Below, in pieces: positions 1-3,000 of a stretch of DNA of 64,000 bases (within the stretch, counting starts at the first letter, position 1; every line of letters starts with the position of its first letter). Location of the stretch: the NCBI RefSeq assembly GCF_000026545.1, contig NC_011601.1; one strand, written 5' to 3'. The position numbers are program-made. This DNA is from Escherichia coli O127:H6 str. E2348/69. Lineage in GTDB: Bacteria; Pseudomonadota; Gammaproteobacteria; Enterobacterales; Enterobacteriaceae.

Positions 1-3000
1 GGGTATTCATACCAAGCCCCAGCAATCCGGCGGTATAGTTATTATCAGTTAGCTGAATACCGGTATATCCTGTCAGGTAGTTATTCAAACCATAGTAGTA
101 GCTGGCTTGAAATAAATTAGGCTCATCCTGGATACTGTCTTTTAAAACCTGACCGGCGCTAATATCCCAGCGACCAACGCCAGGGCGCAGCATTTGCACA
201 ACAGATGAAAATGGCTGGGAGAACGTCCGTTTTGTGCCATCAGCTTCTTCGATAGTCACAATGAGATCGCTGCCATAACCTGACGGGCTAAGATCGTCAA
301 TGGCAAAGGCCCCTGGCGGCACCGTCGTTTCATAGATTTTATAACCATTTTGCATAACGGTTACTTTGGCATTGGTATTCGCTACGCCATGAATGATTGG
401 CGCAAAACTGGCTAATACCGGAGGCAGCATTCGACTGTCACTGTATAAGCGAATACCGCGAATGCTGACTGAATCGAAGGTCTCGCCGGTCGTGTAAGAT
501 TCACCAATAACCAGTTGTGAACGTAGTGACGCAAGATCGCGTTGTAAATAGCGATTCTGAAAATCGTAATCGCTATGGACATTGGTCATCCAGTTGTAGT
601 TACCCGAGGCACGTAACCGCCAGGCACCTAAGTTTATCCCACCGTTGAATGCCGCGTAGATACTGTCATTTGTTCTGCCTGGACTTTCACTGTGATATCC
701 GTTGAGGTTGTAGGAAAGCATGGCTGCATTAATGCCATTTTCCCACAAAGAGGGATCAACATAGTTTTGATAATTCTTCATAATCCATGCCTGGGGGACG
801 TCGATATCCAGGCGTTGATCGTTAACATCGTAACGAATGGATGATTGAGAGATCATTTCAGCCAGATTGAGGCAATCACCAAGATCGTCGTCTCGCTTAA
901 GCAAAATGGCTTTTCCGCTATTCTTGTCTGGTGAACTGATATGAAATTGCAATAAATTTTTCTGCGTAATGCAGGCCTGAGCGTTCTTTTTACCTTCAAT
1001 AACAGTAAAAGCAATGCTTTGGCTCATGATGGGTTGATCGTTAATATACACACTGACATCGTAAATGCCTGGTAGTGTCGGGTTACCTTCTGTATACCGA
1101 CTAAGGTCGATATTTGAAGCATCGTTTCCCATCAGAAATGTATGGTCATATTCGACGAGTTCAGCGCATAAAGCACTATTGCTATACAGCAGAGCGCAAA
1201 ACGTGGCGATGTGGGTAAGATGATTAGTGGATTTAATAGTCACGTTCTGCTTCCTGCTGTGTTATATCCTTGCCAGATTAAAGGTTGGCGTTGCCTTCAA
1301 TAGATCCACCAAAATCATTAATGGCGAAAAAATGCACTTTTGCAGAGCTTGTTCTGCCACTCATCCCATTTACCTTGATGACGTCGTTACTGAACGGCGC
1401 AATCATTGTCATATCCAGGGGATAGCGTTTGCCATTGGCTTCTAAATCACCACTGCTAAAAGAGACATAGTAGGGCGTAGGGTTATCAACGCGTAATGCT
1501 GCTTTGCCTTCAGATGTTGCCCAGGACCACTTCAGAGCCAATGGTGCATCAGATGGCATTCCACTCAATCCTTCCGGGCGATAGAACAGCTTTATACGTG
1601 TGCGAAATGCCAGTTGTAGCAGGCTTTGATTTGATGCTTTTGCTGCATCTGGTTTTGGAGGTACTTCCAGTACGTTAAACCAGAACACACTTTCTCTGTC
1701 TTTTGGCAGAGCACTGCTGGCGGTGTACATCAGTTTGATTGTTTGGCCACGTTTAGCATCAATACGTGATACTGGCGGCGTAGCGGTAAAGGGGACAGTA
1801 ATACTGCCTGGTTCAGCGTTATCATCTCCAGTATCTAACCAACTCTGAACCAGCAATGGGTTATTGCCTTTATTTTCCAAACGTACATTGAAGCTTTTTT
1901 TGTTCGCTTTTATAAACTACTTGTGTACCTGAAATTACGATGTCTGCAATAGCTGATGAGCTAAAAGCCATACAGCTCGCTAAGCACAATGCTGCGGTAT
2001 GTTTAGTATTAAAAAACATAAACCATTCCTTACAGAATTAATTAAAACAGGGAGTAATTATCAAAAGTAAAAATATTTGATGTTATTCCCTGTATATATT
2101 CACCCGATCAATTTAAGCGGTTGATATTTACTGGTAAGTAATGGTATATGCTGAGTTGGTTTTTACATAACCGGCAGTAGCTGCTCTGCTTGCATCCGCA
2201 CGAACATAGGATGCTTTAAAATCGTAGGTTGCAGATTTAGACGTTGAATCCAGAGTTTTGCTGTAAACATCACCCGGATTATTGACCTGAACCTGTTTAA
2301 TAGTAGAACCTTCAATATTGTGCAGAGCGATATTTACGCCGTCAGACGGGGTGTTAATAGACATGTCGTTGTTCAGTGTTCCTTTGCTGTTACCAAAAAA
2401 AACAGAACCGAAGGTCATTTTTGCAGTAGTACCCGGAGCCGGGTTAGCTTTGCTGCAGTCAATAGTAATGCTGAATGGTTTAGCTTTAGCGCCTACAGTG
2501 GTATCCAGTACACCATCAGTAATTTCAGCAACAGTAGCGGTTTGCAGCAGGATCAGACCGTCTTTGTTACCGCCATCAACACGAGCTTCACAAGTGTTAT
2601 CAACGACCAGACCGCTAATATTTAATTGACCGCCGTCCATATCGTTAGCAGCAAATGTAGTACCAGCAGCCATTGCCAACATAATACCGGACAGCGCAAA
2701 ACCTAATTTTTTAGACATAAAAATCCTTGAGTAATATTCCATAAAGTAGATAACAGCATTGCATGATGATGAGATTTTGATGCAATGCCATGTAACTGAA
2801 CGTTACTTTGTTAATGATGTTTGTTTTTTACTAAGTATTACATTCATTCATCATTAGGACAGCTATTTGGCATAATGCCATGACATATGGAAGTTAATTT
2901 TACTAAATATGAAAATTAGTAAAATTAACTTTAAAAAATTAAGGGGTGGTGTGTGGAATTAGAATTTCGGGAAGGTATATTATATTTTTTGTGTTTTTTA

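What the first reader, a model, noticed from the sequence alone, without database searches (positions are those of the whole stretch)
2892..2930. Perfect 14-bp inverted repeat in the yadN promoter region
AGTTAATTTTACTA (2892-2905) and TAGTAAAATTAACT (2917-2930) are exact reverse complements separated by 11 bp, about 170 bp upstream of yadN and about 150 bp downstream of folK. A perfect palindrome of this length in a fimbrial promoter suggests a dimeric regulator operator rather than a terminator (it is all A/T and lacks a GC stem).
Basis: seen in the sequence. Interest (0 to 1): 0.3.

Follow-up and report, generated by a model that had tools for sequence, protein, structure and literature searches.

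The report
Conserved AT-rich dyad upstream of yadN
A real, statistically non-random 16-bp perfect inverted repeat lies about 190 bp upstream of the Yad fimbrial subunit gene in E. coli E2348/69; it is a lineage-variable, partly conserved element of the H-NS-silenced yad control region, probably a protein-binding site, but nothing shows yet what binds it or that it matters.

Summary
The inverted repeat exists and is longer than reported. The arms are 2891-2906 and 2916-2931, 16 nt each and perfectly complementary, with a 9-nt spacer. It is the longest perfect inverted repeat in the 64-kb window, and 1 of 5000 shuffles of the 26 %-GC intergenic region reaches 16 nt.

The window is E. coli E2348/69. 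folK and yadN both lie on the minus strand, and the yad chaperone gene downstream is frameshifted.

The dyad belongs to the yad side, not to folK. Its centre stays about 193-215 nt from the yadN ATG in E. coli allele classes, E. whittamii and E. albertii. Its distance from the folK stop ranges from 66 to 272 nt. It is absent where folK is followed directly by panB.

The arms are better conserved than the spacer and flanks, and three arm pairs changed on both sides. However, the dyad is degraded in K-12/B1-type and ST131-type alleles.

There are no terminator features, no Rfam hit, no GATC sites and no second copy in the genome. No recalled regulator consensus (Lrp, ArcA, CpxR, SlyA, H-NS, IHF and others) matches it above the AT-rich background.

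The best reading is a DNA-level protein-binding dyad in an H-NS-silenced fimbrial regulatory region (confidence 0.4). The rivals are a leader-RNA hairpin and a neutral, self-correcting quasi-palindrome. Interest is low.

The parts
2891..2906 (.). Arm of the dyad nearer yadN (+ strand AAGTTAATTTTACTAA). Read in the yadN direction it is the downstream arm, TTAGTAAAATTAACTT.
   Evidence: Conserved core TTTAC/GTAAA across allele classes.
2907..2915 (.). 9-nt spacer (+ strand ATATGAAAA). Variable between strains.
   Evidence: Within-class divergence is 18.9 % against 2.5-3.7 % for the arms.
2916..2931 (.). Arm of the dyad nearer folK (+ strand TTAGTAAAATTAACTT).
2719..3076 (-). folK-yadN intergenic region: 358 bp, 26 % GC, hypervariable among E. 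coli. The K-12 counterpart is an H-NS-bound 'promoter island' and holds a Rho-termination region.
   Evidence: PMC3661553. PMC7815308 supplementary file 2. PMC13245861.
2128..2718 (-). yadN allele (major fimbrial subunit; 86 % identical to K-12 YadN).
3077..3556 (-). folK, the last gene of the upstream pcnB-folK unit.
2826..2841 (-). Third copy of the arm core (TTTTACTAAGTAT on the + strand). On the yadN strand it reads GTAAT-N5-GTAAA, a CpxR-box-like direct repeat conserved in K-12 as GTAAA-N5-GTAAC. It may belong to the same regulatory module.
   Evidence: D3, I2. (9/10 in both classes; 23/300 and 12/300 shuffles as good)..
1278..2019 (-). yad chaperone gene (yadV/ecpD), frameshifted near codon 40, so the operon controlled from this region is defective in this strain.

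Best explanation
The repeat is a dyad-symmetric cis element of the yad fimbrial regulatory region. It is not part of the folK transcription unit. It sits about 190 bp upstream of the yadN start codon in AT-rich, H-NS-silenced DNA.

It most likely acts at the DNA level as a binding site for a symmetric protein. That protein would be either a dimeric or oligomeric regulator, or a nucleoid-associated protein complex (H-NS, Lrp or similar) that nucleates or is displaced there. Binding would modulate yadN transcription from a promoter further downstream.

Shown here: the repeat is non-random, unique in the genome, positioned relative to yadN, and more conserved than its surroundings.

Inferred: that a protein binds it, and that binding affects transcription. 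The protein is not identified.
For: Non-random.

Tied to yad, not folK: the dyad centre is 192.5 nt from the ATG in both E2348/69 and K-12, and about 200-215 nt in O157, E. whittamii and E. albertii. Its distance to the folK stop ranges from 66 to 272 nt. Among the loci of the 80-species folK scan, none where folK is not followed by a yadN allele of the E2348/K-12 type has the TTTAC..GTAAA dyad downstream of folK.

Sequence constraint: between the two main allele classes the 41-nt dyad window is 73 % identical against a 53 % mean, ranking 5th of 361 windows. The better windows lie at the two gene ends. Within the B2 class the arms diverge 2.5-3.7 %, the spacer 18.9 % and the whole region 11.5 %. 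Conserved arms with a free spacer is the pattern expected of a two-half-site operator.

Symmetry retained: 85 % of cells are paired, against 20-56 % when the partner is slid. E. whittamii keeps a 15/17 dyad at the homologous place with a different sequence.

Context: yad is repressed by H-NS and responds to ArcA, SlyA or BolA overexpression and to serum (PMC13245861, PMC5797941, PMC4337573). Natural cis variants upstream of yadN change its expression (bioRxiv 10.1101/2025.06.10.658842).

Not a terminator, known RNA or repeat family.
Against: No binding protein is identified. Lrp (13/15 on each arm) is matched as well by 93 of 300 shuffles. ArcA, SlyA, H-NS, IHF, Fur, CRP, OmpR, RcsB, FNR and TyrR consensus sequences are no better than the AT-rich background.

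The dyad is imperfect or decayed in the commonest alleles: K-12 16/19, B1-type 15/19 with a hairpin no better than shuffles, and ST131/EC958 only 5-8 bp. EC958 is still H-NS-repressed and serum-induced, so the dyad is not needed for those responses.

In the K-12 class the left arm is more variable (14.6 %) than the region's average.

A 41-bp footprint with 16-bp arms is long for a simple dimer operator.

The perfect copy sits in a strain whose yad operon is already a pseudogene array.

The yadN transcription start is unknown, so 'upstream of the promoter' is an inference from a weak -10 candidate conserved about 115 nt before the ATG.
Confidence: 0.4

Rival explanations
1. Neutral quasi-palindrome. 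An old inverted repeat in AT-rich, weakly constrained DNA is kept, and from time to time made perfect, by intramolecular template switching during replication. This is quasipalindrome correction, a mutational mechanism established in E. coli (named from my own knowledge). On this reading it has no regulatory role, and the perfect copy in E2348/69 is a lineage accident.
For: Perfection varies widely among lineages: 16/16, 15/16, 17/18, 16/19, 15/19 and nearly gone. At pair 3/39 the B2 class shows G:C, G..A and T:A states, i.e. single-step changes to or from perfect symmetry. In the B1-type allele both members of one pair changed without restoring pairing (A:T to G..A). The perfect version persists beside a dead operon. 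In an almost purely A/T stem, double changes restore pairing often by chance, and shuffles give 2.9 pairs with changes on both sides against 3 observed.
Against: Template switching homogenises the two arms but does not explain why the arm sequence itself is much better conserved than the spacer and flanks, within the B2 class and between classes. It also does not explain why the dyad keeps a fixed distance to the yadN ATG across Escherichia species. No other long palindrome occurs in the other AT-rich spacers of the 64-kb window.
Confidence: 0.25
2. RNA-level hairpin. The repeat is transcribed, either in a long yadN 5' leader or in read-through or Rho-terminated pcnB-folK transcripts. There it folds into a stem-loop that stabilises the RNA end or modulates Rho access or translation.
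For: The yadN-strand RNA folds into the full 16-bp stem (-14.2 kcal/mol, z = -8.4 alone; -20.2 kcal/mol, z = -6.1 in 101 nt). Three stem pairs changed on both sides while staying paired, and the covariation score is 0.096 against 0.057 in shuffles (8 of 500 reach it). The loop is free to vary. K-12 has a Rho-termination region in this spacer (peak at 157153, about 57 nt upstream of the K-12 dyad; Rho score 9.0). Rho-terminated transcripts are commonly trimmed back to a hairpin (established knowledge).
Against: No transcription start or 3' end is mapped at the dyad. The curated Term-seq 3' ends contain no folK or yadN entry. The Rho peak lies upstream of the dyad. The hairpin is lost in the B1-type allele (-3.8 kcal/mol, 37 of 200 shuffles as good) and in ST131. 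Mismatches are mostly not G:U-type. There is no Rfam match. The palindrome folds equally on both strands, so strand-specific evidence is lacking.
Confidence: 0.2
3. Intrinsic (Rho-independent) terminator of the pcnB-folK operon.
For: A stable stem-loop lies 145 nt downstream of the folK stop on the transcribed strand.
Against: There is no T-run after the stem on either strand, only 2 G:C pairs in 16, and a 9-nt loop. The terminator scan finds nothing. The distance to folK varies from 66 to 272 nt while the distance to yadN is fixed. The element is absent after folK in species without yad, which instead carry a different repeat 12-18 nt after the stop. K-12 uses Rho here.
Confidence: 0.03
4. 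Part of a repeated or mobile element (REP or MITE end, IS target scar) or of a fim-like invertible or pap-like methylation switch.
For: The palindromic shape. An ISApl1 copy is inserted in the same spacer in one strain.
Against: There is a single locus per genome in 560 genomes and none on plasmids. No similar copy occurs in the window beyond the two arms. The arms are 9 nt apart, not flanking a 300-bp segment. No recombinase gene is adjacent. There is no GATC in the whole spacer. Yad is reported as not phase-variable (PMC13245861). The ISApl1 insertion lies about 75 nt away from the dyad.
Confidence: 0.02

Closest known systems
Upstream regulatory sites of chaperone-usher fimbrial operons (for example the Lrp/PapI sites of pap, and the H-NS, Lrp and IHF sites around fimS and fimB)
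   Same: AT-rich DNA 100-250 bp upstream of a major-subunit gene. Silenced by H-NS. Allele-variable. Expected to bind nucleoid-associated or global regulators.
   Different: There are no GATC sites, no invertible segment and no local regulator gene. The Lrp consensus match is not above background. No binding has been shown for this element.
H-NS-bound 'promoter islands' of horizontally acquired DNA (Shavkunov/Ozoline; PMC3661553)
   Same: The K-12 counterpart of this very spacer is listed as a promoter island bound by H-NS in all data sets. It has low GC and promoter-like hexamers on both strands, and the arms read TTTACT-N15-TAAAAT in both directions.
   Different: Promoter islands are defined by the density of promoter-like signals, not by a discrete conserved dyad. 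The 15-bp spacing is poor for sigma-70, and no + strand start is seen in Cappable-seq.
Quasipalindrome template-switch mutation hotspots in E. coli
   Same: An imperfect or perfect inverted repeat with a short spacer. Lineages differ by changes that make the arms match or unmatch.
   Different: Those are mutational phenomena with no implied function. Here the arm sequence and its position relative to yadN are conserved across species.
Stabilising stem-loops in mRNAs (5' hairpins such as in ompA; 3' hairpins left after Rho termination)
   Same: A stable, isolated stem-loop in an untranslated region, with some compensatory changes.
   Different: No mapped RNA end is known. The stem is almost purely A-U. 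It is lost in major lineages.

Membership tests
Intrinsic (Rho-independent) terminator | G+C-rich stem of about 5-12 bp with a short loop | tested here: not met
   16-bp stem with 2 G:C pairs and a 9-nt loop. The terminator scan found 0 sites.
Intrinsic (Rho-independent) terminator | Run of T immediately after the stem on the transcribed strand | tested here: not met
   The yadN strand continues CCATATGTCATGG. The + strand continues TAAAAAATTAAGG.
Intrinsic (Rho-independent) terminator | Fixed position after the upstream gene's stop codon | tested here: not met
   Distance to the folK stop is 66-272 nt across lineages. The element is absent after folK where no yad operon follows.
Operator of a dimeric transcription factor | Two inverted half-sites conserved in sequence, with an unconstrained spacer | tested here: met
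   In the B2 class the arms diverge 2.5-3.7 % and the spacer 18.9 %. The core TTTAC...GTAAA is kept in B2- and K-12-type alleles. It is degraded in B1 and ST131 alleles.
Operator of a dimeric transcription factor | Match to the recognition sequence of a known regulator above background | tested here: not met
   Scans with 15 recalled consensus sequences against 300 shuffles each. Nothing overlapping the dyad is significant: Lrp 13/15 with 93/300 shuffles as good, TyrR-like 10/12 with 35/300. Only consensus strings were used, not curated matrices.
Operator of a dimeric transcription factor | Demonstrated protein binding and an effect on transcription | not testable with these tools
   No EMSA, footprint or ChIP data at this resolution were found in the papers held. 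LmiA does not bind PyadN.
Pap-like Dam/Lrp phase-variation switch | Two GATC sites within Lrp-binding sites upstream of the fimbrial promoter | tested here: not met
   No GATC anywhere in 2719-3076.
fim-like invertible promoter element | Short inverted repeats flanking a segment of about 300 bp, with an adjacent recombinase gene | tested here: not met
   The arms are 9 nt apart. The neighbours are folK and yadN, with no recombinase.
REP / MITE / other dispersed palindromic repeats | Many copies per genome | tested here: not met
   One locus per genome in 560 genomes. I read the two 'places' per record as the palindrome matching itself on both strands. There is no further copy in the window.
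Curated RNA families (Rfam 15) | Covariance-model match | tested here: not met
   No hit in 2000-4000 except a chance snoRNA match inside yadN (E = 0.36).
Structured RNA element (hairpin under selection) | Base pairs kept through compensatory changes more often than chance | tested here: inconclusive
   Of 19 pairs, 3 changed on both sides. The covariation score is 0.096 against 0.057 (8 of 500 shuffles reach it), but the number of such pairs equals the shuffle mean (2.9). There are only 10 haplotypes from 2 clades, and the stem is nearly all A/T.

The most novel reading that the evidence does not exclude
The dyad is the operator of a still unidentified regulator that counter-silences H-NS at the yad promoter in response to an environmental or host cue. 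The 2026 study of Yad in bloodstream infection explicitly left that regulator open. Allelic decay of the dyad (K-12/B1, ST131) would then explain strain differences in Yad expression.
Probability: 0.1. Interest if true: 0.5.

Novelty: new member of a known kind. Interest (0 to 1): 0.2.

Why it matters
Yad fimbriae have recently been linked to tissue colonisation by extraintestinal E. coli. Apart from H-NS silencing and an ArcA effect, their regulation is undefined. A discrete, partly conserved dyad at a fixed distance from yadN is a concrete, cheap target for mutagenesis and protein pull-down. If it binds a regulator, it would give a handle on how H-NS silencing of this operon is relieved, and on why yadN expression differs between strains. 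If it does not, it is one more AT-rich palindrome in a promoter island. In E2348/69 itself it has no practical consequence, because the operon is broken.

Tried and rejected
- Rfam scan of 2000-4000: nothing relevant.
- Promoter and terminator consensus scan of 2600-3200: 0 sites of either kind.
- My own relaxed sigma-70 scoring found only weak candidates. The one shared by both allele classes is a -10-like hexamer about 115 nt before the ATG. The arms themselves read TTTACT-N15-TAAAAT in both directions, with poor spacing.
- Consensus scans for Lrp, CpxR, ArcA, SlyA, H-NS, IHF, Fur, CRP, OmpR, RcsB, FNR, NarL, TyrR, Nac and a guessed LeuO-like dyad: none overlapping the dyad beats shuffles. 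The ArcA idea also fails on conservation, because the G of GTTAA is G, T or C among alleles.
- Term-seq (Adams 2021): no curated 3' end for folK or yadN, only a Rho region.
- Cappable-seq: no + strand start in the K-12 spacer. The minus-strand part of the stored file is cut off.
- Dar & Sorek 2018 and Conway 2014 supplements are not held. Thomason 2015 and Larsonneur 2016 (the ArcA work) are not held.
- Literature searches for yadN with ArcA, Lrp, LeuO, ChIP or 'inverted repeat' found no description of this repeat. LmiA is indirect. The BolA motif is unrelated. yadN is not flagged as a LeuO SELEX target in the table of PMC5797941.
- Small ORFs across the repeat (for example a 17-codon MKISKINFKKLRGGVWN on the + strand) were judged spurious and not pursued.
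Full report
OBSERVATION. The + strand of the window reads ...gAAGTTAATTTTACTAAatatgaaaaTTAGTAAAATTAACTTt.... The repeat finder extends them to 16-nt arms, 2891-2906 and 2916-2931, 100 % complementary, with 9 nt between them. Each arm holds one G and one C, so the stem is very A/T-rich but not purely A/T. In 5000 dinucleotide-preserving shuffles of the 358-bp, 26 %-GC spacer, the longest perfect repeat reached 16 nt once and 15 nt once. In the whole 64-kb window the next longest perfect inverted repeat is 12 nt, and only 1 of 60 locally shuffled windows reached 14 nt.

CONTEXT. The spacer is 100 % identical to E. coli E2348/69 (EPEC, phylogroup B2). The window is identical to that genome over the 11 kb compared. 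Both neighbours are on the minus strand: folK (3077-3556), the last gene of pcnB-folK, and then a yadN allele (2128-2718) that is 86 % identical to K-12 YadN. The repeat lies 145 nt after the folK stop and 172 nt before the yadN ATG. In this strain the yad operon is decayed. The chaperone is frameshifted near codon 40 (window 1278-2019, verified), and yadM, yadL and yadC are annotated as pseudogenes.

THE SPACER IS HYPERVARIABLE. The window-type spacer occurs in 560 of 5426 complete E. coli genomes, and the K-12 type in 3101. O157 Sakai and ST131 EC958 carry further types. Mean identity between the B2 type and the K-12 type is only 53 %. The 71 nt around the repeat hit a single locus per genome and never a plasmid. 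I read the two 'places' per record as the palindrome matching itself on both strands. So this is not a dispersed repeat.

DOES IT BELONG TO folK OR TO yadN? I anchored on FolK and fetched the locus from 80 species genomes of Enterobacteriaceae. The TTTAC...GTAAA dyad appears only where a yadN allele of the E2348/K-12 type follows folK. Species in which folK is followed directly by panB (Enterobacter, Leclercia and others) have a different, G+C-containing repeat 12-18 nt after the stop, for example ATCGATTAACC...GGTTAATCGAT. A local MAFFT alignment places homologous, partly symmetric sequence at the same position in O157, E. whittamii (15/17) and E. albertii (11/14), although their major-subunit genes are only about 40 % identical to this yadN. 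The dyad centre is 192.5 nt from the ATG in both E2348/69 and K-12, and about 200-215 nt in the other three. Its distance to the folK stop ranges from 66 to 272 nt. The element is therefore part of the yad control region.

CONSERVATION AND SYMMETRY. Ten distinct haplotypes were collected.
- E2348/69 and M17: perfect 16/16, with different spacers.
- 2009C-3133: perfect 16/16, with the outer G:C replaced by T:A.
- Nissle, UTI89 and IMT5155 type: the intermediate G..A state (15/16). CFT073 matches at the same 97 %, so I infer it is this type.
- MS6198 and IAI39: 17/18.
- K-12: 16/19.
- B1 type (O104:H4 and others): 15/19, including one pair changed on both sides without restoring pairing.
- ST131 EC958: only a 5-8-bp remnant.

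Within the B2 class the arms diverge 2.5-3.7 %, the spacer 18.9 % and the whole region 11.5 %. In the K-12 class the left arm is more variable than average, at 14.6 % against 8.4 %. Between classes the dyad window ranks 5th of 361 for identity (0.73 against a mean of 0.53).

On a 19-pair model, 85 % of cells pair, against 20-56 % when the partner is slid by 1-3 columns. Three pairs changed on both sides. The covariation score is 0.096 against 0.057 in shuffles (8 of 500 reach it). However, the number of pairs changed on both sides equals the shuffle mean of 2.9. With a nearly pure A/T stem and two clades, this is suggestive rather than decisive.

Predicted RNA hairpins range from -14.2 kcal/mol (E2348/69) through -8.5 to -11.5 (K-12, MS6198, Nissle type, 2009C-3133) to -3.8 (B1 type, no better than shuffles).

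WHAT IT IS NOT.
- It is not an intrinsic terminator. No T-run follows the stem on either strand, the stem has 2 G:C pairs in 16, the loop is 9 nt, and the scan is negative. In K-12, DirectRNA-seq with and without bicyclomycin places a strong Rho-termination region in this spacer (peak at 157153 on the minus strand, Rho score 9.0, p = 2e-38). That peak is 100 nt after folK and about 57 nt before the K-12 dyad. No curated Term-seq 3' end is listed for folK or yadN (PMC7815308).
- It is not a known RNA family.
- It is not a pap-like methylation switch, because there is no GATC in the spacer.
- It is not a fim-like invertible element. The arms are 9 nt apart and there is no recombinase. Yad is reported as not phase-variable.

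WHAT IS KNOWN ABOUT yad REGULATION.
- H-NS represses yad in K-12, CFT073 and EC958, and serum induces it. The responsible regulator is explicitly unknown (PMC13245861).
- That paper cites Larsonneur 2016 for an ArcA-dependent anaerobic and low-temperature effect. I could not read Larsonneur 2016.
- SlyA overproduction raises yadN 2.4-fold (PMC5797941), and BolA overproduction also raises yad genes. LmiA acts indirectly and does not bind PyadN.
- The K-12 spacer is a catalogued H-NS-bound 'promoter island' (PMC3661553).
- Cis variants upstream of yadN alter its expression in natural isolates.
- None of these papers mentions the repeat.

WHO MIGHT BIND IT? I scanned 15 consensus strings recalled from the literature against 300 shuffles each.
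- Each arm matches the Lrp SELEX consensus at 13/15, but 93 of 300 shuffles do as well.
- ArcA, SlyA, H-NS, IHF, Fur, CRP, OmpR, RcsB, FNR, NarL and Nac are at background.
- The ArcA-like GTTAATT in each arm is not conserved, because the G is G, T or C among alleles.
- The only mildly notable match lies outside the dyad. GTAAT-N5-GTAAA, about 120 nt before the ATG, is conserved as GTAAA-N5-GTAAC in K-12. It is CpxR-box-like at 9/10 (23/300 and 12/300 shuffles as good). It overlaps a third copy of the arm core (D3) and the only -10-like hexamer shared by both classes.

These were consensus strings, not curated matrices, so the test is weak.

INTERPRETATION. The best-supported reading (0.4) is a DNA-level dyad site in the yad regulatory region, bound by a symmetric regulator or a nucleoid-protein complex. 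It rests on four points:
- the arm sequence is conserved while the spacer is free to vary;
- the position relative to yadN is fixed;
- the element is unique in the genome;
- it lies in a region known to be controlled by DNA-binding silencers and counter-silencers.

The main weaknesses are:
- no binding protein is identified;
- the dyad has decayed in the most numerous alleles;
- EC958 lacks it yet is still H-NS-repressed and serum-induced;
- the operon beside the perfect copy is dead.

The rivals are a neutral quasi-palindrome kept symmetric by template switching (0.25), a leader or read-through RNA hairpin (0.2), a terminator (0.03) and a repeat or switch element (0.02).

VERDICT. The feature is a new, undescribed instance of an ordinary kind of element. 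Interest is low (0.2). The decisive experiments are simple ones: transcript-end mapping, arm-mutant reporters and a pull-down.

Noticed in passing
window 3048-3063: GAATATATTTATATTC is a 7-bp inverted repeat with a 2-nt spacer, 13 nt after the folK stop. It is conserved in the B2, K-12 and ST131 spacer classes although the sequence around it diverges. It could be a folK-proximal regulatory or 3'-end element.
   Followed up: no
window 2826-2841 (minus strand): GTAAT-ACTTA-GTAAA is a CpxR-box-like direct repeat, conserved as GTAAA-TTTGG-GTAAC in K-12, about 120 nt upstream of the yadN ATG. It is also a third copy of the dyad's arm core (TTTTACTAAGTAT against TTTTACTAAATAT at 2898-2910) and overlaps the only -10-like hexamer shared by both allele classes.
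   Followed up: partly
window 1278-2019 (minus strand); L001 795-7301: The yad chaperone gene is frameshifted near codon 40. In E2348/69 yadM (internal stop), yadL and yadC (frameshifts) are annotated as pseudogenes. The Yad fimbria is therefore not functional in this strain, while yadN and its upstream region are intact.
   Followed up: yes
K-12 NC_000913.3 coordinate 157153, minus strand (L002 about 2154): A published Rho-termination region peaks inside the folK-yadN spacer. With bicyclomycin, downstream coverage (381) exceeds upstream coverage (140). This suggests Rho-suppressed initiation inside the spacer, not only read-through from folK (PMC7815308 supplementary file 2).
   Followed up: partly
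L043, L065, L084, L073 and other Enterobacter/Leclercia loci, 12-18 nt after the folK stop: Where folK is followed directly by panB, a different conserved inverted repeat (for example ATCGATTAACC-N13-GGTTAATCGAT, 10-11 bp perfect) sits right after the folK stop. It has compensating differences between species (GATTAGCC/GGCTAATC).
   Followed up: no
L007 about 993-1692 (E. coli 20Ec-P-124): An ISApl1 (IS30-family) element is inserted in the folK-yadN spacer, about 75 nt on the folK side of the dyad, separating folK from yadN.
   Followed up: no
window about 2757-2789 and 2869-2879: Two small G+C-containing palindromes lie in the yadN upstream or leader region: GCATTGCAT...ATGCAATGC (9 bp) 40-70 nt before the ATG, and GGCATAATGCC just downstream of the dyad in the direction of yadN transcription. 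The second folds as a second small hairpin.
   Followed up: no
window 27725-27751: The second-longest perfect inverted repeat of the window is ATGTGCCGGATA-AAC-TATCCGGCACAT (12 bp, 50 % GC, 3-nt loop). It was not examined.
   Followed up: no
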